From Candidatus Moraniibacteriota bacterium (GTDB lineage Bacteria > Patescibacteriota > Minisyncoccia > Moranbacterales > GCA-2747515): DNA of 57,370 bases. Location: the NCBI GenBank assembly GCA_023133275.1, contig JAGLWU010000027.1:1-57370 (forward strand), given 5' to 3'. Positions 10,599 through 45,116 of this stretch are shown here, piece by piece (the first letter of the stretch is position 1; every line of letters starts with the position of its first letter). Under the pieces are notes generated by a model. That model searched no databases and was not told the origin of the DNA. It worked only from the letters and a program-made list of their open reading frames with translations. The position numbers were made by a program, and so were the translations under genes.

Positions 10599-11651
10599 AT
10601 GGCATTGCAAGTTGGAATTGTTGGTTTACCAAATGTGGGGAAGTCGACTTTGTTTAAGGCGATTACTAAAAAAGCGGTGGATATTAATAATTATCCGTTT
10701 TGTACGATTGAGCCGAATGTTGGTGTGGTTGAGGTTCCGGATGAGCGGATGGAAAAATTGAGTAAGCTTTCTGGTTCGCGGAAAATTATTCCGGCGATTA
10801 TTGAGTTTGTGGATATTGCGGGATTGGTTGAAGGTGCGTCGAAGGGTGAAGGTTTGGGAAATAAATTTTTGGCGAATATTCGTGAGGTGGATGCAATTAT
10901 TCAGGTGGTGCGTGTTTTTGAGAATGGAAATATTACGCATGTGCATGATAATGTTGATCCGATGCGAGATATTGAAGTAATTGAAACTGAATTGATGTTG
11001 GCGGATATAACGACGGTTGAGAAAACGATTGCTCGAGTGGAAAAATTAGTTAAAAGTAATGACAAGAATGCAGTTTCTCAATTGGAATTGGTGAAAAAAA
11101 TTCAAGATGCTTTGAATGATGGGAAGTTGGCTCGAACTGTTGAATTTGATTTTGAGCATCAACCGAGTAGTCAGATTATTGGGGAGATGAGTTTGTTGAC
11201 GATGAAGCCGATTCTTTATGTTTATAATGTTTCTGAATTGGAAGAATCTTTGGATTCTGAATTGGAGAATAGACCGCATGTGAAATTGGATATTAAAATT
11301 GAGGAGGAACTTATGGATTTGAGTGTGGAGGAAGCTACGGAGTTGGAATTGGTTTCTCATTTGAGTGATTTGATTAAGGAGGCTTATGCTTTGTTGGGAT
11401 TGCAGACTTATTTTACGACGGGCGAGGTGGAGACTCGAGCTTGGACGATTAGGGTTGGTGCGACGGCTCCTGAGGCTGGGGCGGCGATTCATACTGATTT
11501 TCAGGAGAAGTTTATTCGGGCGGATGTGGTGCATTGTGATAAGTTGGTTGAATTGGGTTCTTGGGGTAAGGCTCGGGAGACTGGTGATTTGCAGACGGTG
11601 GGGAAGGATTATGTGATGGTGGATGGTGATGTTGTTGAGTTTAGGGTTTAA
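10599..11651 (+). CDS. ychF: Ribosome-binding ATPase YchF (Obg-family)
   Basis: G1 motif GIVGLPNVGKSTLF, a central coiled-coil insertion and a C-terminal TGS domain. Internal antisense ORFs are artefacts. Confidence 0.9.
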   Translation: MALQVGIVGLPNVGKSTLFKAITKKAVDINNYPFCTIEPNVGVVEVPDERMEKLSKLSGSRKIIPAIIEFVDIAGLVEGASKGEGLGNKFLANIREVDAIIQVVRVFENGNITHVHDNVDPMRDIEVIETELMLADITTVEKTIARVEKLVKSNDKNAVSQLELVKKIQDALNDGKLARTVEFDFEHQPSSQIIGEMSLLTMKPILYVYNVSELEESLDSELENRPHVKLDIKIEEELMDLSVEEATELELVSHLSDLIKEAYALLGLQTYFTTGEVETRAWTIRVGATAPEAGAAIHTDFQEKFIRADVVHCDKLVELGSWGKARETGDLQTVGKDYVMVDGDVVEFRV

Positions 11652-15783: not shown

Positions 15784-17505
15784 ATGAAAATAGACAATTT
15801 ACATTTATACGATTATTTATTAGAACAAGATTTAGTCTCAGGACATAAATTAGATGAATACTTCACAAAAGCACAAGACAAAAATATTCAGCTGATCGAA
15901 ATTCTAGTCAAAGAAAAAATATTTAGTCAATCACGAATGTTGCGTATCATTGCAACGGTTCTAGGATTTAAATTTATAGATTTATCACAAGTAAAAATTT
16001 CCAATAAAATCATAAAATTAATTCCCAAAAAGACTGCTGAAAAATTTTGTGCGGTTGCTTTTGAAAAGAAAAGAAATATTTTAAAAGTAGCGACTTGTGA
16101 TCCAGAACATTCCGAACTTTTTCAATTTCTAAAGAAAAGAACGAAATTGAAAATAGAATTTTATCTTGCTGAAAAAGAATCAATCAAAAAATCTTTATCA
16201 CAATATGTGAAAAAAATATATTTAGCCGATGTTTCCAATGATAAATTATTTGGGGAAGTTAGTAGCATTGATCAAAAAATTGATAGAGAAGAGTTTATTA
16301 TTCGAGTAGTTGATGTAATTATTTCTCATGCCATTATAGATTTAGCAGGTGAAATTCAAATTGAAAACAAAAAAGGACAAACGATTATTTGTTATCGAGT
16401 TGACGGAGAATTGGTGGAAAAAATACTTTTGCCAGATGATATTTTTGAAGAAATTACTGAAGTCATTAAAATTATGGCAAAGTTGAACACACGAGTTGAA
16501 AATTTTTATCAGAACGGAAATTTTGTTATTGAGAAAAATAATGTTGAAACTTTTTTTCAGGTTAGTATTATTCCAGATTTATTTACGGAGAGAATTATTA
16601 TTCGTCTTGATGACAATGTTAATGATAATTTGTCTTTAGAAAAAATTGGTTTGGCGAAAAATAATGTTGAAACTATTTATAAAGCAATTCGAAAAAATCA
16701 CGGAATGGTTTTACTTTCCAGTCCAAATGGTGGTGGCAAAACAATAACTTTTTATACTCTTTTGGGACTGATAAATTCTTCAGATAAAAATATTTCAACC
16801 ATTGAAGATCCAGTGGAAAAAAATATTAATAAAGTTAATCAGATTCAAGTTGATGTTCTCAATGGAATAAATTTTAAAAGTGGATTATTTTCTATTTTTA
16901 ATCAAGACGTGGATGTTATTGGTGTTGGTGAAATTTTAGATGAAAGTACTTTGGAAACTTCATTAGATGTGGCTAATTCGGAAAAATTAGTTTTAGCGAC
17001 AATGTATTCTAATTCGGCTATAAATGTTATTCAGAATATTTTTGAATTGGATGTTGATTTGGCTTTGGTGGCAAAAAATATAAATTTGATTGTTTCGCAA
17101 AGGTTGGTGAAAAAATTGTGTGTGCATTGTCGGGAGAAATATTTTTTAAGTGAAGAATCTGTTCACACTTTAGGAAAAAAATATGATTTACCTAGAATTC
17201 AGAAGATTATTGCTAGTAGAAATGATTTTGATGGTCATATAAATTTGCTAGAATCTCCATTTTACAAATCGAAGGGCTGTAAAAAATGTGGAGGTAGTGG
17301 TTATCAAGGACAATTAGGAATTTTTGAGATTTTAAAGCCATCAAATCGGGTTCGAAAATTAATTGCACGAAGAGAGCGGACTGAAAAAATTCGGGAAATT
17401 ATTTTAGCGGAAGGATTTGAGACAATGATTGATGATGCGTTTCATAAAGTTGTGCAAGGTGTTACAGATTTTAAAGAGATTGGTGGAATATTTAATTCGA
17501 AGTAG
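15784..17505 (+). CDS. pilB: Type IV pilus / type II secretion assembly ATPase (PilB/GspE family)
   Basis: GspE-N-like N-terminal domain, P-loop SSPNGGGKT with an unusual Ser at the first Gly position, Asp/Walker-B boxes DVIGVGEILDE, and a tetracysteine motif CVHC…CKKCGGSGYQG. Confidence 0.75.
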   Translation: MKIDNLHLYDYLLEQDLVSGHKLDEYFTKAQDKNIQLIEILVKEKIFSQSRMLRIIATVLGFKFIDLSQVKISNKIIKLIPKKTAEKFCAVAFEKKRNILKVATCDPEHSELFQFLKKRTKLKIEFYLAEKESIKKSLSQYVKKIYLADVSNDKLFGEVSSIDQKIDREEFIIRVVDVIISHAIIDLAGEIQIENKKGQTIICYRVDGELVEKILLPDDIFEEITEVIKIMAKLNTRVENFYQNGNFVIEKNNVETFFQVSIIPDLFTERIIIRLDDNVNDNLSLEKIGLAKNNVETIYKAIRKNHGMVLLSSPNGGGKTITFYTLLGLINSSDKNISTIEDPVEKNINKVNQIQVDVLNGINFKSGLFSIFNQDVDVIGVGEILDESTLETSLDVANSEKLVLATMYSNSAINVIQNIFELDVDLALVAKNINLIVSQRLVKKLCVHCREKYFLSEESVHTLGKKYDLPRIQKIIASRNDFDGHINLLESPFYKSKGCKKCGGSGYQGQLGIFEILKPSNRVRKLIARRERTEKIREIILAEGFETMIDDAFHKVVQGVTDFKEIGGIFNSK

Positions 17506-29386: not shown

Positions 29387-30118
29387 ATGAAAATAAGTAA
29401 AAATAGAATTGTTATTGTAATTTTAACTGTAATTTTGTTAGTTTTTATAATTTATATTTTAATTCCTGTTAGTGAAGATAAAAATTTAGAGTCAGAACAT
29501 GTAAATAAAAAATCTTTTAATTTAGAAAATTTAAGTGAAGAAGATGAAAAGTTTCTCAGAGAATCTTTAGGTAATCCTAAAAATATTGAGGATAGATTAG
29601 ATCCAGTTTGTAAAAGACATGAAATGTGTAAACCGATTTCCATGGCTAGTTTTAAAGGTAATATCAAAATGGTTAATTTATTATTAGATGTTGGTGTAGA
29701 TATTGATGGAAAAACAGGCGAAAGTGGTGATACTCCTCTCATATTTGCTATCATGCAAGAAAATAGAGAATTGGTGGAACTTCTTATTTCAAGAGGTGCG
29801 AATGTAAACGAAAAAAACTTTTTTAACATGTCTGCTTTTGGTGGTGTGTGTGGTATGGGGAATGAAGAATATGTTAGACTTTTTTTAGAGAATGGTGCTG
29901 ATGTCAATCAAATTCTTTCTCGAAAATTTAGTGAAGATGATGAGCCTTCGCAAGATGTTACTCCTCTAATTTTTGCTACAAGAGAAAATAATTTAAATGT
30001 TGTTAAATTACTTATTGAGGCTGGAGCTGATAAATCGTTGAAAGATTCAAATGATAAGACTGCTTTAGATTATGCAGAAAAACAAAATAATAGTGAGCTA
30101 ATGGAAATTTTGAAATAA
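29387..30118 (+). CDS. Membrane-anchored ankyrin-repeat protein
   Basis: N-terminal TM helix, then at least four ANK repeats (GDTPLIFAIMQENRELVELLISRGANVNEKN…). Confidence 0.7.
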   Translation: MKISKNRIVIVILTVILLVFIIYILIPVSEDKNLESEHVNKKSFNLENLSEEDEKFLRESLGNPKNIEDRLDPVCKRHEMCKPISMASFKGNIKMVNLLLDVGVDIDGKTGESGDTPLIFAIMQENRELVELLISRGANVNEKNFFNMSAFGGVCGMGNEEYVRLFLENGADVNQILSRKFSEDDEPSQDVTPLIFATRENNLNVVKLLIEAGADKSLKDSNDKTALDYAEKQNNSELMEILK

Positions 30119-31896: not shown

Positions 31897-31930
31897 ATGC
31901 GTGATTTTTTTCACGCATTTATTTTTTATA
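31897..31930 (+). terminator. Rho-independent terminator after rpsU
   Basis: Perfect stem ATGCGTGA-TTTTTT-TCACGCAT followed by TTATTTTTT. Confidence 0.65.
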
Positions 31931-31941
31931 ATATTAAATTT

Positions 31942-32394
31942 ATGAAAATTAGCGAAAAAATTAAAAAGGATCTTATACAGGCGATGAAAACTGGTGAGGC
32001 GGAAAAGCGTGATACTTTGCGGATGTTGGACAGTATGATTAAGAATGAAGAAATTGCGAATAATTCTCGTGAGGAGGGTTTGAGCGATGATGATGTTTTG
32101 GTTTTGGTTAAGCGAGCGGTTAAACAGAGGCGGGATAGTATTGAGCAATTTCAGGCTGGTGGTCGAAAGGATTTGGCGGACAAGGAAAAAATGGAGCTGG
32201 ATATTATTAGTGAGTATTTACCAATGCAAATAAGTGATGAGGAATTGGAGAAGATTGTTAAGGAAATTATTGTGGAGGTTGGGGCTGAGTCTAAGGCGGA
32301 TATGGGGAAGGTGATGGGTTTGGTGATTGGTAAGGCTGGTTCGTTGGCTGATGGTGGTAGGGTTAAGGATATGGTGATGAAGAATTTGGGGTAA
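31942..32394 (+). CDS. GatB/YqeY-domain protein
   Basis: MKISEKIKKDLIQAMKTGEAEKRDTLRMLDSMIKNEEI… matches the YqeY family. The longer ORF from 31897 would overlap the rpsU terminator hairpin, so the ATG at 31942 is preferred. Confidence 0.7.
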   Translation: MKISEKIKKDLIQAMKTGEAEKRDTLRMLDSMIKNEEIANNSREEGLSDDDVLVLVKRAVKQRRDSIEQFQAGGRKDLADKEKMELDIISEYLPMQISDEELEKIVKEIIVEVGAESKADMGKVMGLVIGKAGSLADGGRVKDMVMKNLG

Positions 32395-34273: not shown

Positions 34274-35536
34274 ATGAGAGATAATATTATTACTAGTATA
34301 GATTTAGGTTCTTCGCTTGTACGTTGTGTTATTGCTGATGCGTCTTCTGAAGTAGATGGTCAAATTAGGATTTTAGGTGTGGGAGCGGTTGAGTCTGATG
34401 GTATGCGTCGGGGAGCAGTTGTGGATATTGTGGATGCAGCTGAGGCTATTTCGGTAGCAGTGGAGAAAGCTGAAATGATGAGTAACGTGCAAGTTAAAAG
34501 TGCCATTGTTAGTATTGGTGGTGCAGGTCTAACTATTGAAAGCACAAAAGGTGTTGTGGCGATAGGAAGAGCTGACGGTGAAGTTACGGAAGATGATGTA
34601 ACTAGAGTCATTAACGCAGCACAATCTATTGTAGTTCCAGCAAATAAAGAAATTATTCATGTGATTCCTCGGTCTTTTCGTTTAGATGATCAGAAAGATA
34701 TTAACGATCCGATTGGTTTACAGGGTGTACGACTTGAGGTTGATGCAGTGGTTGTGGAAGCACCTGGAAATCATGTAAAAAATTTAACTCATGCTATGGA
34801 ACGGGCAGATATTACTGTTGAGGATTTTATTATTGAGCCGTTAGCAGCAGCTGAGTCAGTTCTAACAAAGAAACAAAAAGAATTAGGTGTGGTGTTAGTT
34901 AATTTAGGAGCTAGTACAACTTCATTGGCAGTTTTTGAAGAGGGTGAATTAGTTTATACAGCAATTGTTCCAATCGGTTCAGATTTTATTACAAATGATA
35001 TTGCGATTGGTTTGAGAACATCTATTGATACAGCAGAGAGAGTAAAGTTTGAATATGGAAGTGCTATTTTAGATCAAGCTAGTCAACGTAGTAAAATTGA
35101 TTTGTCTCAAATTGATCCACGTGAAGATGGTGAAATTCCACACAGTCATGTCATTGAAATTATTGAAGCTCGGTTGGAAGAGATATTTGAATTAGTGCAA
35201 AAAGAATTGAGAAGTATTGGCAAAGATCAATTATTACCAGCTGGAGCAATTTTAACAGGTGGTGGCGTTAATCTTCCTAGGGTAGCAGAATTTGCCAAAA
35301 GAAAATTGAGACTGCCTGTTCAAATTGGTCGACCAGAAAATCTTTTAGGAGTGATGGATAAAGTCGATGATTCTTCTTATGCTACAGTAGTTGGACTTAT
35401 TCTTTGGGCGATGGACGATATACATTATTCTGGTGGTAGAAATAAATTTACTTCAGGAATATTAGGAGCTGTTTCAGGAGGTGCTAAGAGTTCAGTAAAA
35501 AATGTCGGTTCTTGGCTGGGTAAATTTTTGCCTTAG
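34274..35536 (+). CDS. ftsA: Cell division protein FtsA
   Basis: Actin-fold N-terminus ITSIDLGSSLVRCVIAD, ATP-binding loops, and a C-terminal amphipathic tail. Immediately upstream of ftsZ. Confidence 0.85.
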   Translation: MRDNIITSIDLGSSLVRCVIADASSEVDGQIRILGVGAVESDGMRRGAVVDIVDAAEAISVAVEKAEMMSNVQVKSAIVSIGGAGLTIESTKGVVAIGRADGEVTEDDVTRVINAAQSIVVPANKEIIHVIPRSFRLDDQKDINDPIGLQGVRLEVDAVVVEAPGNHVKNLTHAMERADITVEDFIIEPLAAAESVLTKKQKELGVVLVNLGASTTSLAVFEEGELVYTAIVPIGSDFITNDIAIGLRTSIDTAERVKFEYGSAILDQASQRSKIDLSQIDPREDGEIPHSHVIEIIEARLEEIFELVQKELRSIGKDQLLPAGAILTGGGVNLPRVAEFAKRKLRLPVQIGRPENLLGVMDKVDDSSYATVVGLILWAMDDIHYSGGRNKFTSGILGAVSGGAKSSVKNVGSWLGKFLP

Positions 35537-35705: not shown

Positions 35706-37058
35706 ATGGGAGAAATTAAAACAGACGTAGAAACATTTGCTCGTATTAAAGTTGTTGGAGTTGGTGGCGGTGGTGGAAATGCAATCAGTCGAATGATTGA
35801 TGCTAATTTGAAAGGTGTTGAATTTGTAACGATTAATACGGATGCTCAAGCTCTGCATCATTCAAGAGCGGCTGAAAAGGTTCATATTGGTAAGAATTTA
35901 ACCAAAGGTCTTGGTGCTGGGATGAATCCGGAAGTTGGTCGTCAGGCAGCTGAAGAAAGTCGAGAAGAAATTCAAGGTGTACTTAAAGGTGCTGATATGG
36001 TTTTTGTTACTTGCGGTTTAGGTGGAGGAACAGGAACAGGTGCAGCTCCGATTGTGGCTGAAACTGCTCGTGAGTTAGGAGCTTTGACTGTGGGTGTAGT
36101 TACTCGTCCATTTTCATTCGAAGGTGCAAAAAGAAGTTCTATTGCTGCGGAGGGCTTAGAAGTGTTGAAAGAAAGAGTAGATACAATAATTACTATTCCA
36201 AATGATAGACTTTTATCCATTATTGACAGAAAGACCAGTTTAGTTAATGCTTTTAAAATTGTGGATGATGTTTTGAGGCAAGGTGTTCAGGGTATTTCTG
36301 ATTTGATTACTAAACCGGGTGTAGTTAATGTTGACTTTGCTGATGTAAAGGCAGTTATGTCAAATAGTGGTTCTGCTTTGATGGGAATTGGTATTGCAAG
36401 TGGAGAAGATAGAGCAGCTGAGGCAGCAAAAGCAGCGGCGAACAGTCCTCTTTTAGAACTTTCTATTGAGGGAGCAAAAGGTGTTTTGTTTAATGTTAGT
36501 GGAAGTAGCGATGTTACTATGCTTGAAATTAATGAAGCAGCTAATATTATTACAGAGACAATTGATCCAGAAGCTCGGGTTATTTTCGGTGCGGTGTTAG
36601 ACGATCAAATTGGTAAGGGTGAAATACAAATTACAGTAGTGGCGACAGGATTTGATAGTGATGAAAATGAAACTAAAGGAATAGTTACTAGAGTTGAAAA
36701 GAAAAAGGAAGATGTTACTGTAAAAGTAAATCAAAGTGAAAGTCCAAACATAAATGTAAATCAGGGTCAGATTCAAAATAAGAGTGCTGTTAAAAATGAA
36801 GAAAAATCAGTAAAAGTAATTCCTAAAAAAGCAGAAATTAGAAGAGAAGAAACTGAACGAAGAGTTGTGCGACCAGAACCTGAGATAAATCAATCACCTT
36901 TTTCTACTAAATCACTCAGATCTAATAACAATATGATTGTTGATGAAAAGGTGCAATCTCGTAATATACCTAGAAATGAAAAAGCAGAAAATATAGTCAA
37001 CGATGGCGATGATGATTTTGAAATCCCAGCTTTTATTAGGAAAAAAATGGATAGATAG
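35706..37058 (+). CDS. ftsZ: Cell division GTPase FtsZ
   Basis: Tubulin signature GGGTGTG ([12 protein letters not shown]) and N-terminal GVGGGGGNA. Long disordered C-terminal linker with a conserved C-terminal peptide ([11 protein letters not shown]). Confidence 0.95.
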
Positions 37059-37120
37059 GTTTTGTGTAAATTTGTTTTCTTAATATTTAAAACTCTCTTG
37101 ATTTTTTTAGGGGAGTTTTT

Positions 37121-40100
37121 TTGTTTATAGATTTCGCAGTGGTTTTGTGGTATTATTTAGTTATGGAAAGAAATAAACTTAAAAAGTTTTTGAAAGTATT
37201 GGGTTATCAACCTCTTGATGGAGAGGTTGGTTTTTGGTTTAAAAAATATAATAATCATAATGATTATCAAATTATAGTTAAGGTTAATGATAATTTAAGA
37301 AATTCTAAAATTGATTGGGGAAATAAAATAAAAATTGGTAGAAAAAGTACCTCTAATTTTTCGCAAAATGAAACTTTTGTTGTTTTTGAATGTGTAAATA
37401 GATTATTAGAAAATGGAAATAAACCAGAAAGTTTAGTTTTAGAAAAAGAATGGAAGCTTGGTCATAAAGGAAAGGGATTTTTAGATATTCAGGTTTTAGA
37501 TGAAAGTGGAAAGAGCTTTTTGATGATTGAATGTAAGACTTTTGGTAAGGAGTACGATAAAGCTAAGAATGATACTGAAAAAGATGGAGGTCAGTTATTT
37601 GGATATTTCATTCAAGAAAGAAATACTAAATATATTTGTTTATATTCTTCTATTTTTGAGAATAATAAAATAAAATCTTTTAGTGATATTATAGTTGTTA
37701 ATAAAGAAATAAGAGGTTCTGAAAATAGTCGAGACGCTTTTGATTCTTGGCATCCTCAGATTTGGGAATCTAGGGGTGTGTTTGCTGTTGATGGAGTAAA
37801 ATTTAGAGGAATTGTTAAAGGGAATAAAGAAAATGATTTAGTGGACTTAACTGAAAAAGATGGAGGTAATATTTATAATCGTTTTGCTGAAATATTAAGA
37901 AAAAATGTTGTTTCTGATAAAACAAATGCCTTCAATAAAATTTTTAATTTATTTCTTTGTAAAATCGTTGATGAATTTGAGACAAGAAAAGGAAATGAAT
38001 ATGAATTTCAGTGGAAAGATGGAGAGAGTAATGAAGATGTTTTAATGCGTTTAAATGATTTGTATAAAAGAGGAATGTCCAGATATTTAGATTTAAAGAT
38101 TGAGGCTGTGTCAGAAAAGGAATTTGATGAGGCACTTGAAAACTTTGAATACAATAAATCAAAAATTGAAAAATTATTTATTCGACAAAAATTATATTCA
38201 GGAAATGAATTTGCATTTAAAGAGGTTTTTGATAAAGAAAGTTTTAATGAAAATTGTTTTGTAGTTAGGGAGGTTGTTAAGCTTCTAGAAAAATATAGAA
38301 TAAAATACACAACCAAACAGCAATTTTTAGGAGATTTTTTTGAACGACTTTTGAACACGGGAATTAAACAAGAGTCAGGTCAGTATTTTACACCCACTCC
38401 AATTGCATCTTTTATTTGTAAATCTATACCTTTTAAGAAAATTATTGAGGATAAAAATAAAAGAGAAAAACCTTATTTTTTGCCTTATATTATAGATTAT
38501 GCTTCAGGAGCTGGACATTTTCTTACTGAGGCTATGGAAGAAGTTGATCATCATATTAAAGACATTGATGGAGATTGGGTTTTATGTGGAGAAAAACATA
38601 AAAAAGAATTTCTTAAAAATAAAGATAATTTTGATTGGGCGAGTGAATATATTTATGGTATTGAAAAAGATTATAGATTAGCAAAAACAACAAAAATCAG
38701 CACTTTTTTAAATGGTGATGGAGATGCTAATGTTATCAGGGGAGATGGTCTTGATAGTTTTGAGAAAAGTGATGTTTATAAAGGAAAGTTAAAAGAATTT
38801 AATTTTGAAAATGAAAATAGAAAATTTGATATTTTAGTTGCAAACCCACCTTATTCTGTTGATGGGTTTAAAACAACATTAAGAGATGGTAAAGATTCTT
38901 TTGAGCTTTATCCTTATCTTACAGATCAGAGTAGTGAAATTGAGTGTCTTTTCATTGAAAGGGCTAAACAGTTACTCACAGAGGGAGGTATTGCAGGTAT
39001 TATTCTGCCATCTAGCATTTTAACCAATACGAGAATTTACTCTAAGACTAGGGAGATCATTTTTAAGTATTTTAATATTATAGGTATTACGGAATTAGGA
39101 CGTAATACTTTTATGAAGACACCTACAACTACGGTTGTTTTATTCTTAAAAAGAAAAAATAATAAAGATTTTGATGGGATTTTTAAAAAAGTGAAGCAAA
39201 GTTTTGATAATCAAAAAGACATTACTATAAATGGAATTGAAAAAGCTTACTCAAAATATTTGTCTTATGTTTGGCGTGATGAAGATAGTCAAGTTAATTT
39301 TGCAGATTATAAAACTTTAATTAATAAAAATCCAAATAAAAAAATTAAAAATCATGAGATTTTTCAAGAGTATGAAAAAAAGATAAAAGCTAAAGATAAG
39401 CAAGAGAAGTGGCAAAAGATTCATGATTTAGAAAAAGAAAAAATAACTTATTTTTTGAATGTTTATAATCAAAAAGTTGTTTTAATAAAAACTGGTGAGA
39501 AAAAAGAAGAGAAGAAATTTTTGGGTTACGAGTTTTCAGATAGACGAGGAGGTGAAGGAATTCATTCACTTCAAAGAGGTGAGGACATTAGTAAATGCAC
39601 TCAGCTTTTTGATGCTAAAAATCTTTACAATTCAGAAAAGGCTAGTACTTATATTTTGGAGGCTCTTGAGGGAAAAAAAGAAAGAAAAATTCCAGAAAAA
39701 TTAAAGGAAAATATTAGTCGTGTTGATTTGATTGATATGATGACTTTTGATCGTATTGATTTTGAGAAAAGTATTAATTTGAATGTTAAAAAAAAGATTA
39801 AAATTAAGAGTAAATGGGATTTTGTAAAATTAGAAACTGTTCTTTTTGAACAGCCTAAATCTAAAATAAAAGTAAAAACAGTCAATGACACAGAAAATGG
39901 AATTTATAATTTTTTTACCAGCGGTGAATCTATTTTAAATTTTAATAAATTTTTAGTAGATGGGAAAAATATATATCTTTCTACGGGAGGCAATGCCATT
40001 ATTAAATTTTTTGATGGAAAAGCAAGTTATTCTACAGATACTTTTGTTATACAAAGTAAAAACGAAAATTTAATAAAAACAAAATTAATATTTTATTTTA

Positions 40101-40837
40101 TTGAATATATAATTAAAGATATTGATAAATTTTATTTTAAAGGACAGGGATTAAGACATTTGCAAAAATCTGATTTTAGAGAAATAAAAATTCCTCTCCC
40201 ACCAATAGAAATTCAACAAAAAATTGTGGATGTGATTGAGTCTTTGGAGAAAAAAGAGAATGAGATAAAAAGGTCAATTAAAGTTATGAGGCAAGAAATT
40301 AGTAAAATTATTAATAATATTTCAGGGGAAGAAAAAACTTTAGAGTCTATTTGTGAAGATATTTTTGCTGGAGGAGATAAGCCAGAAAAATTTTCATATG
40401 AAAAAACAGAGGAATTAAATATTCCAATTTATGCTAATGCAGTAAAAAACAATGGATTATATGGCTATACAAATGTTTATAGAGTCAATAAGCCTTCTGT
40501 GACAGTTTCGGCAAGAGGTACAATTGGTTTTCCTATTGCAAGAAATGAAAAATTTTATCCTATAGTAAGATTAATTGTTATTATTTCTGGCGAACGATTA
40601 AAAAATAAATATTTGGAAATCGTTTTAAAAAATGCAAACATAGTTTCGAGTGGGACAAATATTCCACAATTAACGGTTCCAATGGTTCAGAATATGAAAG
40701 TTCCTTTTTTGCCTTTTTCTAAACAACAAAAAATAGTTTCTCAAATTGAAAAGATTGAAAATAAAATTTCGAAATTAGAAAAAGAATTGGAAGAAGTTCC
40801 AAAGAAAAAAGAAAAAATATTGAAAAAATATTTGTAA
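37121..40837 (+). CDS. Single-polypeptide restriction-modification enzyme (Type IIB/IIG-like). N-terminal PD-ExK nuclease, gamma-class N6-adenine methyltransferase, and two HsdS-like target-recognition domains.
   Basis: Nuclease motif LDIQVLDESGKSFLMIECK. MTase motif I (X) GQYFTPTPIASFI and motif IV LVANPPYS. The C-terminal half has two TRD-like repeats separated by coiled-coil conserved regions (…LKIPLPPIEIQQKIV…, …VPFLPFSKQQKIV…). No helicase/ATPase. Start is TTG at 37121 with a GGGGAG RBS; the alternative is ATG at 37163. Confidence 0.75.
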   Translation: MFIDFAVVLWYYLVMERNKLKKFLKVLGYQPLDGEVGFWFKKYNNHNDYQIIVKVNDNLRNSKIDWGNKIKIGRKSTSNFSQNETFVVFECVNRLLENGNKPESLVLEKEWKLGHKGKGFLDIQVLDESGKSFLMIECKTFGKEYDKAKNDTEKDGGQLFGYFIQERNTKYICLYSSIFENNKIKSFSDIIVVNKEIRGSENSRDAFDSWHPQIWESRGVFAVDGVKFRGIVKGNKENDLVDLTEKDGGNIYNRFAEILRKNVVSDKTNAFNKIFNLFLCKIVDEFETRKGNEYEFQWKDGESNEDVLMRLNDLYKRGMSRYLDLKIEAVSEKEFDEALENFEYNKSKIEKLFIRQKLYSGNEFAFKEVFDKESFNENCFVVREVVKLLEKYRIKYTTKQQFLGDFFERLLNTGIKQESGQYFTPTPIASFICKSIPFKKIIEDKNKREKPYFLPYIIDYASGAGHFLTEAMEEVDHHIKDIDGDWVLCGEKHKKEFLKNKDNFDWASEYIYGIEKDYRLAKTTKISTFLNGDGDANVIRGDGLDSFEKSDVYKGKLKEFNFENENRKFDILVANPPYSVDGFKTTLRDGKDSFELYPYLTDQSSEIECLFIERAKQLLTEGGIAGIILPSSILTNTRIYSKTREIIFKYFNIIGITELGRNTFMKTPTTTVVLFLKRKNNKDFDGIFKKVKQSFDNQKDITINGIEKAYSKYLSYVWRDEDSQVNFADYKTLINKNPNKKIKNHEIFQEYEKKIKAKDKQEKWQKIHDLEKEKITYFLNVYNQKVVLIKTGEKKEEKKFLGYEFSDRRGGEGIHSLQRGEDISKCTQLFDAKNLYNSEKASTYILEALEGKKERKIPEKLKENISRVDLIDMMTFDRIDFEKSINLNVKKKIKIKSKWDFVKLETVLFEQPKSKIKVKTVNDTENGIYNFFTSGESILNFNKFLVDGKNIYLSTGGNAIIKFFDGKASYSTDTFVIQSKNENLIKTKLIFYFIEYIIKDIDKFYFKGQGLRHLQKSDFREIKIPLPPIEIQQKIVDVIESLEKKENEIKRSIKVMRQEISKIINNISGEEKTLESICEDIFAGGDKPEKFSYEKTEELNIPIYANAVKNNGLYGYTNVYRVNKPSVTVSARGTIGFPIARNEKFYPIVRLIVIISGERLKNKYLEIVLKNANIVSSGTNIPQLTVPMVQNMKVPFLPFSKQQKIVSQIEKIENKISKLEKELEEVPKKKEKILKKYL

Positions 40838-40840
40838 AAA

Positions 40841-40866
40841 ATACGGAGTCAATCCGTATTTTTTAT
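40841..40866. terminator. Bidirectional terminator between the RM gene and recG
   Basis: Perfect stem ATACGGA-GTCAA-TCCGTAT followed by TTTTTT. Confidence 0.65.
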
Positions 40867-42950
40867 TACAAATGAGTAACACTTTTAAGTTCAGAAATAA
40901 TCTTTTTTAAAAGAAGGGACTTGTTCAATTCAAAATCATTTTTCAAAATTTCTTTAGCTTTTTCTCGAGCTAAAGTAACTAATTTCAAATTGTTAATATT
41001 TTTCATTGCACCATCAGTTAAACCACTTTGACGAGAACCGACAAATTCACCTGGTCCACGTAATTTTAAATCAATATCAGCTAGTTTAAAACCATCATTA
41101 TATTTTTCCATCGCCTGCAAGCGTTCGCTATTTATATTTTCACTAAATAAAAAACAATAAGACTGATGCTCGTCTCGACCAATACGACCGCGAAACTGGT
41201 GAAGTTGAGAAAGTCCAAAGCGTTCGGCATTTTCAATAATCATTAAAGTCGCATTTGGAATGTCCACACCAACCTCAATAACTGAAGTTGAGACTAAAAT
41301 ATTTATTTTTTTATTTTTAAAATCAGTCATTAAATTTTCCTTATCTTTAGATTTTAAACGACCGTGAAGCAATCCTAATTTTAAATCAGGAAAAATTTTA
41401 CTTTGCAATCTTTTATGTTCAGTGATGGCAGCTTTGACTTTTTTAATTGCTTCAGATTCCTCAACTAATGGAAGAATGATGTAGACTTGTTGACCCTTTT
41501 CTATTTCCTTTTTTATAAATTTATAAATAGATTTTTGATTAGTTGGAGAAATCACTTTAGTTTTAATTTCTTTTCTGTTCAAAGGTTTTTCATCCAATAC
41601 AGAAACATCTAAATCACCAAAAAGAGCGAGAGCAAAAGTTCGGGGAATGGGCGTAGCGGTCATAGTTAATAAATGAGGTTTTAAATTTTTTTCTTTACGA
41701 CTTAAATTTTCTTTTTGAGTGATGGCAGATCTTTGAGCAACTCCAAAACGGTGTTGTTCGTCTATTATCACTAATCCTAATTTCTCAAATTCAATATCTT
41801 CTTGAATAAGTGCATGCGTTCCGACTATTAAATTTATTTTTCCACTTTTAATTAATTCCAACATTTTTGGACGAGTAGTTTTTTTTGTCAAAGCAGGGTG
41901 CGATCCGTAAGTTTTATAAGTGCTGGTCAAAAGTCCAATTTCAAAATTATATTTTTCAAAAAAGTCGAGAAAAGTTTTAAAATGCTGGCTGGCTAAAACT
42001 TCAGTGGGAGCTAAAATAGTTACTTGAAAATTTTCATTAATACATTGTAGTGTAGCTATGACGGCGACTAAAGTTTTTCCTGCACCAACATCTCCATTGA
42101 GCAATCGATTCATTGGAGTTGATTTTTCTAAATCAGTTAATATTTGAAAAGAACTTTTTCGTTGAGCGTCTGTTGGTGCAAAAGGAAGTGTTTTAATAAA
42201 TTTTTGGATTAATTTTTTGTCGAATTTAATTTCAGGCGATTTTTGTTGCGAGAAATTTAAGCGAACTTTTAAAGTGGTCAATTGTAAAATTAGCATTTCT
42301 TCAAAAGCAAATCTTTTTTGGGCTAAAATTACTTCGTTCATTTTTTTTGGAAAATGAATCATTCGAAGGGCTGTTTTAAAATTTGGTAAATGTAATTCTT
42401 TTAAAATTGATTGGGGGATTGGATCGGGCAAATTAATTTTTTTGTCTAAAATTATTTGAATTTGCCAGCGAATCCATTTTGAAGTTAGTCCTGCTGTTTC
42501 GGGATAAATGGGTACAAGACGTCCAGTGTTGGTTGGAATTCGATTGGCTTTTTCAATTTCTGGTGCACTAAAAGATAATTCATTATTTTTATCATTAACT
42601 TTTCCACTTATTCTCACTTGGGTATTGATGGGAAATGAGCGTCCAATGTAAGATTGATTGAACCAAATAATTTTGATTGTTCCAGTTTTGTCTTCTAATA
42701 AAGCTTCGGTTAATAACATTTTTCTTCCATAAGTGCGAATAGTTTGGATGTCAATTATTGTTCCGATGACGGTGGATTCTAAATTAGGTTGAAGTTGATT
42801 GATTGAAAATATTTTGGAGTAGTCTTCATAACGAGACGGAAAATGTTTTAGTAAATCTTTTACGGTGAACAAATTTAATTTGGCTAATTTTTTGAAATAG
42901 TTTTTTTGAACTCTTGGCAGTTTTTCTAATTTTGTGTCTAAATTTATCAT
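40866..42950 (-). CDS. recG: ATP-dependent DNA helicase RecG
   Basis: N-terminal wedge/OB domain, Walker A GDVGAGKT, DEQH box, TATPIPRT, and motif VI QLHQFRGRIGR. Confidence 0.9.
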   Translation of the reverse strand: MINLDTKLEKLPRVQKNYFKKLAKLNLFTVKDLLKHFPSRYEDYSKIFSINQLQPNLESTVIGTIIDIQTIRTYGRKMLLTEALLEDKTGTIKIIWFNQSYIGRSFPINTQVRISGKVNDKNNELSFSAPEIEKANRIPTNTGRLVPIYPETAGLTSKWIRWQIQIILDKKINLPDPIPQSILKELHLPNFKTALRMIHFPKKMNEVILAQKRFAFEEMLILQLTTLKVRLNFSQQKSPEIKFDKKLIQKFIKTLPFAPTDAQRKSSFQILTDLEKSTPMNRLLNGDVGAGKTLVAVIATLQCINENFQVTILAPTEVLASQHFKTFLDFFEKYNFEIGLLTSTYKTYGSHPALTKKTTRPKMLELIKSGKINLIVGTHALIQEDIEFEKLGLVIIDEQHRFGVAQRSAITQKENLSRKEKNLKPHLLTMTATPIPRTFALALFGDLDVSVLDEKPLNRKEIKTKVISPTNQKSIYKFIKKEIEKGQQVYIILPLVEESEAIKKVKAAITEHKRLQSKIFPDLKLGLLHGRLKSKDKENLMTDFKNKKINILVSTSVIEVGVDIPNATLMIIENAERFGLSQLHQFRGRIGRDEHQSYCFLFSENINSERLQAMEKYNDGFKLADIDLKLRGPGEFVGSRQSGLTDGAMKNINNLKLVTLAREKAKEILKNDFELNKSLLLKKIISELKSVTHL

Positions 42951-43724: not shown

Positions 43725-44417
43725 TTATAAACCAGATACGTAATTTGTGTAAACATTCAAGTTTTGAAGTTGAGTGTCGTTCAAATTTTTAGCTGATTGG
43801 ATAGCTGTATCGATTGATTCGTTTGAGAAACTAACTGAAGTTCCTGGAGCGATTGTTCTGTTTGAAATATCTTTTTGCAAAGAATCTTCAATATATATTT
43901 TATGAGCAGGTGTTAATCCTTCTACATTATTTTCTGAAATATATTGAGCAGTAGCTTTACGAGCCAAATGAGTTAAACTATCTCCATAATTTGCGGTTAC
44001 TGTTATTTCGTCATCTTTTTGTTGAGAATTATTGTTTTTAATCTCAGTTTTAGTAGATGGTCCTTTGCCTCTGTCGGTATTCTCAGTAGAGTTTTCAGTT
44101 GGAGATATTGTTGTTTGTGTCTGATCATTTTCTGAAGTTCTGTTTGTTGTTGAATCAGGTTTAACTGATTCTGTATCGTTTGCTTTATTTCTTGAATCAG
44201 CATCTTTCGCTTCATTCACTGGTATTTCATCGATAACTTCTTCTTGTTGAGCCTTGTCATCTACGATTGCTCCTTCATTACTTGATTTTTTTGAATAAGA
44301 ATAAATCAAGAAAAATAGTATTAAAAGAGTGATCATAATGATAATTATAGCTTGCAAACTATCTTGTATCCAATTTGTGAATCTTTTGCCTTTACTTTCT
44401 TCCATAAAATCTTTCAC
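43725..44417 (-). CDS. Hypothetical membrane-anchored protein with a low-complexity S/T/N/D-rich ectodomain
   Basis: N-terminal TM AIIIIMITLLILFFLIYSY, then a compositionally biased region. Confidence 0.45.
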   Translation of the reverse strand: MKDFMEESKGKRFTNWIQDSLQAIIIIMITLLILFFLIYSYSKKSSNEGAIVDDKAQQEEVIDEIPVNEAKDADSRNKANDTESVKPDSTTNRTSENDQTQTTISPTENSTENTDRGKGPSTKTEIKNNNSQQKDDEITVTANYGDSLTHLARKATAQYISENNVEGLTPAHKIYIEDSLQKDISNRTIAPGTSVSFSNESIDTAIQSAKNLNDTQLQNLNVYTNYVSGL

Positions 44418-44627: not shown

Positions 44628-45116
44628 ATGAATTTTATTCTTATTTTAATTTTAGTATTAACAATAATTATTTTTATAATTGGACTAATTGGAATTATTA
44701 ATCCTATCATCCCTAGTTTACCAGTTATTTGGTTGGGTATTTTTATTTTCGTATATTTTGAAAATTTTCAATCGATCACTGTTCAGTTTGTAATTATCAC
44801 GGCGATTATTGCTGTGCTGGGAATGTTACTAGATTTTGTGTCTAATATTTTAGGTGTTAAATTTTTTGGATCGAGTTGGTATGGCGTGATGGGTTCTGTT
44901 GTAGGATGTATCGTTGGAATTATTATTTTTCAAATTATTGGAATGATTATTGGAACTTTTGTTGGAGCATTTTTGGGTGAATATTTTTTGCACAAAGATG
45001 GAAAGAAATCGTTGAAAGCAGGTTTAGGTTCTTTTCTCGGTTTTATTTTTGGCATTGCTACGAAAATTGTTTTATCTCTGGTGATGATTGGATGGTTTTT
45101 TATTTTGTTATTTTAA
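44628..45116 (+). CDS. Small polytopic membrane protein (DUF456-like)
   Basis: IGLIGIINPIIPSLPVIWLGIFIF resembles the DUF456 Gly/Pro motif. Four TM helices. Confidence 0.45.
   Translation: MNFILILILVLTIIIFIIGLIGIINPIIPSLPVIWLGIFIFVYFENFQSITVQFVIITAIIAVLGMLLDFVSNILGVKFFGSSWYGVMGSVVGCIVGIIIFQIIGMIIGTFVGAFLGEYFLHKDGKKSLKAGLGSFLGFIFGIATKIVLSLVMIGWFFILLF

What the first reader, a model, noticed from the sequence alone, without database searches (positions are those of the whole stretch)
37121..40837. Single-chain nuclease-methyltransferase-specificity RM enzyme (Type IIB/IIG-like) between ftsZ and recG
A 1238-aa ORF combines an N-terminal PD-ExK nuclease motif (LDIQVLDESGKSFLMIECK), an N6-adenine gamma-class MTase (GQYFTP…, NPPY) and two HsdS-like target-recognition domains with the conserved central and terminal coiled-coil regions. 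It has no translocase/helicase module. That layout is the architecture of AloI/PpiI/TstI-type Type IIB enzymes, not a classical Type I or Type ISP system. It has no separate partner gene. It is inserted immediately after the essential ftsA-ftsZ pair and is bounded by a bidirectional terminator shared with recG. Because the specificity comes from two TRDs within one polypeptide, the recognition sequence should be bipartite and unique to this strain.
Basis: partly seen in the sequence, partly recalled or inferred. Interest (0 to 1): 0.55.

Follow-up and report, generated by a model that had tools for sequence, protein, structure and literature searches.

The report
Single-chain Type IIB restriction-modification enzyme
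This gene encodes an intact one-protein restriction-modification enzyme of the well-known AloI/TstI (Type IIB) kind in an uncultured ultra-small (Patescibacteria) bacterium; it is a routine anti-phage defence gene whose only individual feature is its particular pair of DNA-reading modules.

Summary
The ORF is real and intact. The likely start is ATG 37163 (1224 aa), not TTG 37121.

- **Architecture.** N-terminal PD-(D/E)XK nuclease, helical connector, gamma-class N6-adenine methyltransferase with a helical 'knob', then a complete HsdS-like TRD1-CR1-TRD2-CR2 module. There is no ATPase or translocase.
- **Nuclease.** The four residues shown by mutagenesis to be essential in BsaXI (E73, D90, E105, K107) align to E94, D108, E123 and K125. 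All four are invariant in 40 homologues.
- **Family.** A PADLOC Type IIG model matches end to end (E 1e-224). More than 4500 homologues exist. The C-terminal 474 aa align collinearly with characterised TstI (E 2e-35).
The reading as a single-chain AloI/PpiI/TstI-type Type IIB enzyme is supported. The neighbours (ftsA-ftsZ upstream, convergent recG) and the shared bidirectional terminator hairpin are also confirmed.
- **Not supported: 'unique to this strain'.** TRD1 is 59-66% identical to that of 18 of 39 aligned homologues, and TRD2 63-65% to two. One Bacteroidota-like protein shares both.
- **Not shown: 'inserted'.** There are no flanking repeats, composition is host-like, and no close relative was available for an empty-site comparison.

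Verdict: a new member of a known kind, of low interest. Activity and recognition sequence are untested.

The parts
37163..40837 (+). Gene for a single-chain Type IIB (R-M-S fusion) restriction-modification enzyme, 1224 aa plus stop. The mechanical ORF starts at TTG 37121.
   Evidence: (PDLC03624 positions 2-1269 of 1271, E 1.4e-224)
37163..37762 (+). N-terminal PD-(D/E)XK endonuclease domain (aa 1-200). Catalytic E94 (37442-37444), D108 (37484-37486), E123 (37529-37531) and K125 (37535-37537).
   Evidence: The alignment to RM.BsaXI maps these to E73/D90/E105/K107, which are essential by mutagenesis (PMC11997821). They are invariant in 40 homologues. Model and fold hit.
37838..38314 (+). All-helical connector between nuclease and methyltransferase (aa 226-384)
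   Evidence: AF2 secondary structure. Aligns to the BsaXI connector.
38315..39160 (+). Gamma-class N6-adenine DNA methyltransferase domain (aa 385-666): GQYFTP 406-411, motif I DYASGAGHF 445-453, motif IV NPPY 561-564
   Evidence: Pfam N6_Mtase and Eco57I. Motifs invariant. Positions. Fold hits to HsdM and BsaXI.
39161..39463 (+). Helical 'knob' insertion in the MTase (aa 667-767)
   Evidence: In the AF2 model, helices 667-767 lie between strands 657-664 and 771-776. The BsaXI paper describes a knob in the same place in all single-chain RMS Type IIB models (PMC11997821).
39464..39802 (+). Conserved linker between the MTase and the specificity module (aa 768-880), containing KFLGYEFS 785-792
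   Evidence: Highly conserved in the family. The best-conserved part of the alignment with TstI.
39803..40192 (+). Target recognition domain 1 (aa 881-1010)
   Evidence: Pfam Methylase_S 883-1039. Mosaic identity pattern, 15-66%. HsdS fold.
40193..40318 (+). Central conserved helix CR1 (aa 1011-1052)
   Evidence: Long helix at model residues 356-392, i.e. aa 1015-1051. Conserved IPLPP..Q..IV motif.
40319..40711 (+). Target recognition domain 2 (aa 1053-1183), the most variable segment
   Evidence: Second Methylase_S stretch. Mean identity 22%, but 63-65% to P0005 and P0032.
40712..40834 (+). C-terminal conserved helix CR2 (aa 1184-1224), ending ILKKYL as in TstI (VLKKYLENA)
   Evidence: Helix at model residues 526-564. 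Alignment to the TstI C-terminus.
37089..37126 (+). Intrinsic-terminator-like hairpin plus T-run after ftsZ. It implies that the RM gene is a separate transcription unit.
   Evidence: dG -13.5 kcal/mol, z -4.3
37148..37156 (+). Candidate extended -10 element TGgTATTAT, ending 6 nt before the ATG. Inferred from reading the sequence only.
   Evidence: Sequence. Not reported by the two-hexamer scan. Genes in this window almost never have a Shine-Dalgarno motif.
40835..40865 (.). Bidirectional terminator hairpin shared by the convergent RM gene and recG
   Evidence: z -6.3 on + and -6.1 on -

Best explanation
The gene encodes an intact, solitary, single-chain Type IIB restriction-modification enzyme of the AloI/PpiI/TstI/CjeI family. 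REBASE-style nomenclature also calls this IIG/IIC.

Shown here. One polypeptide carries, in order:
- a PD-(D/E)XK nuclease with the full E-D-ExK catalytic set;
- a helical connector;
- a gamma-class N6-adenine methyltransferase with a knob insertion;
- a complete HsdS-like TRD1-CR1-TRD2-CR2 specificity module.

It has no ATPase motor.

Inferred from the characterised relatives TstI, AloI and BsaXI:
- The two TRDs, held apart by the antiparallel CR1/CR2 coiled coil, read a bipartite asymmetric site: two 2-4 bp half-sites separated by about 5-7 unspecified bp.
- With SAM, the MTase flips out and methylates one adenine in each half-site on opposite strands. This protects host DNA.
- With Mg2+, an oligomer (a tetramer in TstI and AloI) bridges two unmethylated sites on incoming DNA. 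[quoted passage not shown]

The host is an uncultured Patescibacteria (CPR, Parcubacteria-like) bacterium. There the enzyme serves as a compact, one-gene anti-phage and anti-foreign-DNA barrier.

Specificity in this family evolves by reassortment of TRDs, and this protein shows the mosaic pattern expected from such reassortment.
For: - End-to-end PADLOC REase_MTase_IIG match, E 1.4e-224, profile positions 2-1269 of 1271.
- Pfam N6_Mtase, Eco57I and 2x Methylase_S, with no helicase.
- phmmer to RM.BsaXI 8w0p, E 4e-49, covering the nuclease and the MTase.
- The BsaXI catalytic residues E73/D90/E105/K107 (PMC11997821) correspond to E94/D108/E123/K125, which are invariant in 40 homologues. So are GQxFTP, motif I and NPPY.
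- AF2 model of aa 1-880 (pLDDT 79): best PDB hit BsaXI RM, E 1e-31 over 891 columns.
- AF2 model of aa 660-1224 (pLDDT 84.5): matches whole HsdS subunits, including BsaXI S and PacII S.
- The C-terminal 474 aa are collinear with TstI to the last residues, E 2e-35. The TstI sequence came from the supplement of PMC4027205.
- Size (1224 aa) and layout match the description of AloI/CjeI-type enzymes: about 1250 aa, two C-terminal TRDs (PMC3874165).
- TRD mosaicism. The closest cores (60-65% identity) have unrelated TRDs (about 20%). More distant cores (46-51%) share TRD1 at 59-66% or TRD2 at 63-65%.
- Homologues in other genomes are likewise solitary genes.
Against: - Nothing here tests activity. 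Cleavage on both sides, oligomeric state, methylation and the recognition sequence are all inferred from relatives.
- Direct comparison with a characterised single-chain member (TstI) was possible only for the C-terminal 40%. The N-terminal page of the published sequence was illegible.
- Overall identity to TstI in that region is only 26%.
- The only solved relative, BsaXI, is a two-subunit enzyme with a paddle domain that this protein lacks.
- Intact catalytic residues do not prove that the nuclease is expressed or active in the host.
Confidence: 0.85

Rival explanations
1. The protein works essentially as a solitary sequence-specific m6A methyltransferase, with an epigenetic or orphan role. 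Its nuclease would be silent or residual in vivo, so it would not restrict DNA.
For: - TstI methylates and cleaves unmodified sites at similar rates, so single-chain enzymes may restrict poorly (PMC4027205).
- The gene sits among housekeeping genes with host-like composition.
- It has no mobile-element signatures.
Against: - All four catalytic nuclease residues and the surrounding nuclease domain are strictly conserved across 40 homologues from several phyla.
- The nuclease domain is as conserved as the rest of the core: mean 43% identity, against 59% for the MTase.
- This argues for selection on cleavage.
Confidence: 0.08
2. It is a Type I or Type ISP-like translocating enzyme, or the methyltransferase component of a multi-gene defence system (MADS or BREX-like) whose partners lie elsewhere.
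For: - The S module and the MTase resemble Type I HsdS and HsdM.
- There is an NCBIfam hit to MADS MAD2, E 2.8e-32.
Against: - No helicase or ATPase domain is present in the protein.
- The MAD2 score of 111.8 bits is far below the 720-bit cutoff.
- The full-length PADLOC match is to a IIG R-M fusion, not to MADS or Type I components.
- No related MTase, S or R gene lies in the 57-kb window.
- Homologues elsewhere are also solitary.
Confidence: 0.03
3. It is a decaying or non-functional remnant of a horizontally acquired RM gene.
For: RM genes are often transient. GC (0.266) is slightly below the window mean.
Against: - The reading frame is uninterrupted over 1224 codons and matches the family profile end to end.
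- All functional motifs are intact.
- There are no frameshift-prone repeats.
- GC and GC3 lie within about 1 SD of the other genes, and codon usage is close to the window average.
Confidence: 0.04

Closest known systems
TstI / AloI / PpiI / CjeI: single-chain Type IIB (IIG/IIC) R-M-S fusion enzymes, about 1250 aa
   Same: - Same length class (1224 aa against 1251 aa for TstI).
- Same domain order: nuclease, MTase, TRD1-CR1-TRD2-CR2.
- No translocase, and a solitary gene.
- The C-terminal 474 aa are collinear with TstI, including the family-specific linker (KFLGYE.S...EGI; LVD.L.F.R..F.K.I.L..KK) and the terminal LKKYL.
- TRD reassortment is the known mode of specificity change in this family (PMC3874165).
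   Different: - Only 26% identity to TstI over the comparable region.
- The TRDs are unrelated to those of TstI (about 20%), so the recognition sequence is expected to differ from CAC N6 TCC.
- The host is a Patescibacteria MAG rather than a cultured bacterium.
- Biochemistry is untested.
BsaXI (PDB 8w0p): two-subunit (RM)2S Type IIB enzyme
   Same: - Nuclease, connector, MTase and knob are homologous in sequence (E 4e-49) and in predicted fold (E 1e-31, 24% identity over 891 columns).
- The catalytic E/D/E/K residues are identical in position.
   Different: - BsaXI has a separate S subunit and a C-terminal two-helix 'paddle'.
- Here the S module is fused through a conserved linker.
- The model shows no paddle. 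The BsaXI paper reports the same for other single-chain RMS enzymes.
Type I RM methyltransferase core (HsdM2-HsdS; e.g. EcoKI, PacII M1M2S, 1ydx/1yf2 S subunits)
   Same: The MTase fold and the complete S-subunit fold with two TRDs and an antiparallel coiled coil. A bipartite recognition logic.
   Different: There is no HsdR helicase/translocase. The nuclease is fused N-terminally to the MTase. Cleavage is expected at fixed positions, not at distant random sites. The stoichiometry is 1 RM : 2 TRD per chain.
MmeI/BpuSI/DrdV-type Type IIG/IIL enzymes
   Same: An N-terminal PD-(D/E)XK nuclease fused to a gamma-class MTase in one chain (fold hits 3s1s and 7lo5).
   Different: Those enzymes carry a single, non-HsdS-like TRD, recognise continuous sites and cut on one side. 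Here there are two HsdS-type TRDs with conserved helices.

Membership tests
Single-chain Type IIB R-M-S enzymes (AloI/PpiI/TstI/CjeI) | Nuclease, methyltransferase and specificity functions in one polypeptide of about 1250 aa, in the order R-M-S | tested here: met
   1224 aa. PADLOC IIG profile matched end to end. Pfam domains in that order.
Single-chain Type IIB R-M-S enzymes (AloI/PpiI/TstI/CjeI) | N-terminal PD-(D/E)XK endonuclease with an intact catalytic E...D...ExK | tested here: met
   E94/D108/E123/K125 align to the BsaXI residues E73/D90/E105/K107, which are essential by mutagenesis. They are invariant in 40 homologues.
Single-chain Type IIB R-M-S enzymes (AloI/PpiI/TstI/CjeI) | Gamma-class N6-adenine MTase: motif X, then motif I, then NPPY, with the TRD C-terminal | tested here: met
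   GQYFTP 406-411, DYASGAGHF 445-453, NPPY 561-564. Pfam N6_Mtase and Eco57I.
Single-chain Type IIB R-M-S enzymes (AloI/PpiI/TstI/CjeI) | C-terminal HsdS-like module with two TRDs and two conserved helices (TRD1-CR1-TRD2-CR2) | tested here: met
   Two Methylase_S stretches. AF2 model with long helices at aa 1015-1051 and 1185-1223. Foldseek hits cover whole S subunits.
Single-chain Type IIB R-M-S enzymes (AloI/PpiI/TstI/CjeI) | Sequence homology to a biochemically characterised member | tested here: met
   The TstI C-terminal 495 aa (supplement of PMC4027205) align collinearly to aa 751-1224, E 2e-35. The N-terminal part of TstI was illegible in the held file, so only about 40% of the length was compared.
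Single-chain Type IIB R-M-S enzymes (AloI/PpiI/TstI/CjeI) | Knob insertion in the MTase, and no paddle domain (the structural trait of the RMS-fusion group according to PMC11997821) | tested here: met
   Predicted model only. Helices 667-767 lie between strands 657-664 and 771-776, and no long two-helix bundle follows. The paper's statement.
Single-chain Type IIB R-M-S enzymes (AloI/PpiI/TstI/CjeI) | [quoted passage not shown] | not testable with these tools
   Needs purified enzyme and cleavage mapping.
Single-chain Type IIB R-M-S enzymes (AloI/PpiI/TstI/CjeI) | [quoted passage not shown] | not testable with these tools
   Needs a methylome (SMRT or Nanopore) and hydrodynamic or kinetic assays.
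Type I RM / Type ISP | SF2 helicase-like ATP-dependent translocase (HsdR, or an internal motor) | tested here: not met
   No helicase or ATPase domain in Pfam, NCBIfam or PADLOC. The adjacent RecG is a bona fide RecG with wedge and domain-3 regions, not an HsdR.
Two-subunit Type IIB (BcgI/BsaXI) | Separate S (B) subunit gene next to the RM (A) gene | tested here: not met
   The S module is fused. No S-like ORF lies elsewhere in the window. The neighbours are ftsZ and recG.
MADS MAD2 methyltransferase | NCBIfam NF047738 at or above its cutoff, with accompanying mad genes | tested here: not met
   111.8 bits against a cutoff of 720. No mad partners are seen in the flanking genes or in the 10 largest ORFs elsewhere in the window; only this protein was scanned against PADLOC.

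The most novel reading that the evidence does not exclude
The most novel reading that the evidence does not exclude concerns the host. It is an ultra-small Patescibacteria cell that depends on scavenged nucleotides and carries type IV pilus machinery (a PilB-like ATPase at 15784-17505). In such a cell this solitary, compositionally native Type IIB enzyme might do more than defend: by excising short fragments from unmethylated foreign or host-cell DNA it could feed nucleotide salvage or DNA uptake. A more modest version is that its TRD1/TRD2 combination specifies a bipartite recognition sequence not yet in REBASE, which would be useful as a new 2b-RAD-type reagent.
Probability: 0.05. Interest if true: 0.5.

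Novelty: new member of a known kind. Interest (0 to 1): 0.18.

Why it matters
It matters little for basic biology. The family is large (more than 4500 detectable homologues), was characterised biochemically from the AloI work onwards, and now has a solved relative in BsaXI.

Three points of modest value remain:
- It documents that a CPR/Patescibacteria genome, a group poor in CRISPR, carries a compact one-gene RM barrier in a housekeeping neighbourhood.
- It gives a clean natural example of TRD reassortment across phyla in the single-chain Type IIB family.
- If expressed, it might yield a new bipartite specificity for Type IIB-based genotyping.

The unresolved 1 RM : 2 TRD stoichiometry puzzle of this family (PMC3874165) applies here too, but this sequence does not help to solve it.

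Tried and rejected
The protein was split into aa 1-880 and aa 660-1224 instead.
2. The full TstI sequence could not be obtained. Only the second page of supplementary Figure S1 was legible, so the N-terminal comparison with TstI could not be made.
3. Empty-site test for 'insertion'.
   - FtsZ-anchored loci from GTDB genomes show that ybeY-dagK-ftsA-ftsZ is conserved in Parcubacteria-like MAGs. None of them has RM or recG downstream.
   - RecG-anchored metagenome loci reach at most 47% identity, and none has ftsZ nearby.
   - The relatives are too distant to define an insertion.
4. The search for flanking direct or inverted repeats found only low-complexity AT-rich chance matches.
5. Composition and codon-usage test for recent horizontal transfer: the gene is not an outlier.
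6. Phase-variation test: there is only one A8 run and one (AT)4, so no contingency tract.
7. The Rfam scan of the window found nothing.
8. The MADS MAD2 reading was rejected on score. The Type I and ISP readings were rejected on the missing motor.
9. I considered a leaderless or attenuated-expression reading, based on the extended -10-like TGgTATTAT and the intragenic hairpin. Neither could be tested, and almost all genes in this window lack a Shine-Dalgarno motif anyway.


Full report
**Observation.** The window contains an uninterrupted ORF at 37121..40837 on the plus strand (TTG start, 1238 aa). The likely biological start is ATG 37163, giving 1224 aa. Three observations point to this start:
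- TTG 37121 directly abuts a strong terminator-like hairpin that closes ftsZ (37089-37119, dG -13.5 kcal/mol, z -4.3).
- Homologue N-termini align with MERNKLKK and not with the 14 extra residues.
- The gene call on the source metagenome scaffold uses the ATG. P0001 is 100% identical at 1224 aa.

The neighbours are as stated: YbeY, diacylglycerol kinase, FtsA (34274-35536) and FtsZ (35706-37058) upstream, and a convergent RecG (40866-42950, minus strand) downstream. The RecG has wedge, helicase and domain-3 regions.

The 28-nt gap between the two stop codons holds a hairpin flanked by an A-run and a T-run. It folds equally well on both strands (z -6.3 and -6.1). The 'shared bidirectional terminator' is therefore a sound prediction.

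**What it is.**
- Pfam finds N6_Mtase (386-733), Eco57I and two Methylase_S stretches, and no helicase or ATPase.
- A PADLOC profile for Type IIG restriction enzyme-methyltransferase fusions matches from profile position 2 to 1269 of 1271 (E 1.4e-224).
- The best solved relative is the RM subunit of the Type IIB enzyme BsaXI (8w0p, E 4e-49). It aligns over both the nuclease and the MTase.
- The BsaXI cryo-EM paper identified E73, D90, E105 and K107 as essential for cleavage and states that they are conserved across the Type IIB family (PMC11997821). In the alignment they correspond to E94, D108, E123 and K125 here.
- All four are invariant in an alignment of 40 full-length homologues. So are GQxFTP, motif I (D445, G449, G451, F453) and N561-P562-P563-Y564.
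- The motif order (X, then I, then IV, with the TRDs C-terminal) is that of gamma-class N6-adenine MTases.

**Structure models.**
- The AlphaFold2 model of aa 1-880 (pLDDT 79, pTM 0.71) has BsaXI RM as its best PDB match (E 1.3e-31 over 891 columns). Type I HsdM subunits follow.
- Helices 667-767 are inserted between two MTase strands. They correspond to the 'knob' that the BsaXI authors report in all single-chain RMS models. No long two-helix 'paddle' follows.
- The model of aa 660-1224 (pLDDT 84.5) matches entire HsdS subunits: 1ydx, 1yf2, PacII S and BsaXI S.
- Its two long helices lie at aa 1015-1051 (CR1) and 1185-1223 (CR2). This is the full TRD1-CR1-TRD2-CR2 module.

**Membership in the AloI/TstI family.** The TstI protein sequence is printed in the supplement of Smith et al. 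2014 (PMC4027205), but only the C-terminal 495 residues were legible.
- They align collinearly with aa 751-1224, right to the terminal LKKYL (E 2e-35, 26% identity).
- Similarity is strongest in the family-specific linker between the MTase and TRD1.
- Type I and Type ISP are excluded by the absence of a motor.
- BcgI/BsaXI-type organisation is excluded because S is fused, and tblastn of the RM protein against the window found no other related MTase or TRD sequence.
- MADS MAD2 is excluded by score: 111.8 bits against a cutoff of 720.

**Mechanism (inferred from TstI, AloI and BsaXI, not tested here).**
- The two TRDs, spaced by the antiparallel CR helices, read a bipartite asymmetric site.
- The MTase methylates one adenine per half-site on opposite strands, using SAM.
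- On unmethylated DNA an oligomer (a tetramer in TstI) bridges two sites. [quoted passage not shown]

**Specificity modules.** Identity to 39 homologues is mosaic.
- The six closest cores (60-65% over aa 1-880: P0002-4, P0006, P0007, P0022) have unrelated TRDs (14-23%).
- Many more distant cores (46-51%) share TRD1 at 59-66%. This holds for 18 of the 39.
- Two share TRD2 at 63-65% (P0005 and P0032).
- P0005 shares both TRDs (59% and 65%). It lies in a 2.39-Mb genome next to gldH, which suggests Bacteroidota.

This is the signature of TRD reassortment known for the family. Whether 59-66% identity implies identical half-sites is unknown.

The closest cores also include forms of about 1069 aa with a single TRD (for example P0044, 58% over aa 6-890).

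**Host and context.** FtsZ-anchored loci from GTDB genomes place the window in Patescibacteria (CPR). The best matches (59-66% full-length FtsZ) are mostly MAGs labelled Parcubacteria group, Moraniibacteriota or Patescibacteria; a few carry other or unspecific labels.
- The ybeY-dagK-ftsA-ftsZ block is conserved in those MAGs, but the region downstream of ftsZ differs. None has the RM gene or recG there.
- In L012, ftsZ is followed directly by homologues of the window's ORF 43725-44417 and its DUF456 gene. The RM-recG-cupin segment is therefore a variable stretch.
- With relatives this distant an insertion event cannot be defined.
- Nothing else indicates recent acquisition. There are no flanking repeats.
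- GC is 0.266 and GC3 is 0.160, both within about 1 SD of the window's genes, and codon usage is close to the window average.
- There is no contingency repeat.
- The rest of the window is housekeeping: GroEL, PilB-like ATPase, MurJ, LepA and others.
- Homologues in other genomes are also solitary genes among unrelated neighbours.

**Verdict.** This is a new member of a well-known, abundant family, with no unusual architecture. Interest is low. What remains unknown is experimental: activity, oligomeric state and the recognition sequence.

Noticed in passing
window 37206-37231 (plus T-run to 37241): A terminator-like hairpin lies inside the RM ORF, 14 codons after the ATG: 11 pairs, dG -14.8 kcal/mol, z -3.6, followed by TTTTTGGTTT. 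It could attenuate expression of a potentially toxic gene, or it could be chance (4 terminator-like sites found against 1.3 +/- 1.3 expected in the region).
   Followed up: partly
whole window (43 ORF starts): Only 3 of 43 major ORFs have a Shine-Dalgarno-like motif within 25 nt upstream. Most starts are preceded by A/T-rich sequence, so this genome appears to initiate translation largely without SD.
   Followed up: partly
P0042, P0044, P0052, P0053, P0055 (homologues, about 1069 aa): Some of the closest core relatives are about 155 aa shorter; some are partly covered by the query. P0044 (58% identity over aa 6-890) aligns only to aa 6-890 and has only about 180 residues beyond that point, enough for a single TRD. 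The others were not inspected. P0055 is labelled Candidatus Gracilibacteria. A single-TRD form would presumably act as a dimer on a symmetric site.
   Followed up: partly
L012 10001-12890 (MAG contig CAYRUU010000012.1): In this MAG, the one with the highest FtsA identity (66%), ftsZ is followed directly by homologues of window ORF 43725-44417 and of DUF456 (44628-45116). The RM-recG-cupin segment of the window is absent at that position.
   Followed up: partly
L126 3420-9965 (Ga0172379_10000891): Another metagenome contig has a 43%-identical RM homologue about 1 kb upstream of a recG homologue and divergent from it. This is 1 of 80 recG loci, so it is probably coincidence.
   Followed up: no
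L082 7056-8792: The locus of homologue P0003 (core 62% identical) carries a large serine recombinase (Resolvase/Recombinase) 1.3 kb downstream of the RM gene. This hints that some family members travel on mobile elements.
   Followed up: no
window 10599-11651 and 31897-32394: Two ORFs are compositional outliers: GC 0.415 with GC3 0.405, and GC 0.396 with GC3 0.428, against window means of 0.314 and 0.229. The second is the YqeY-domain gene. The first was not identified.
   Followed up: no
window 29387-30118: An ankyrin-repeat protein (243 aa) is encoded in this Patescibacteria contig, according to the Pfam annotation of the identical ENA scaffold. Ankyrin repeats are uncommon in free-living bacteria and may relate to a host-associated lifestyle.
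   Followed up: no
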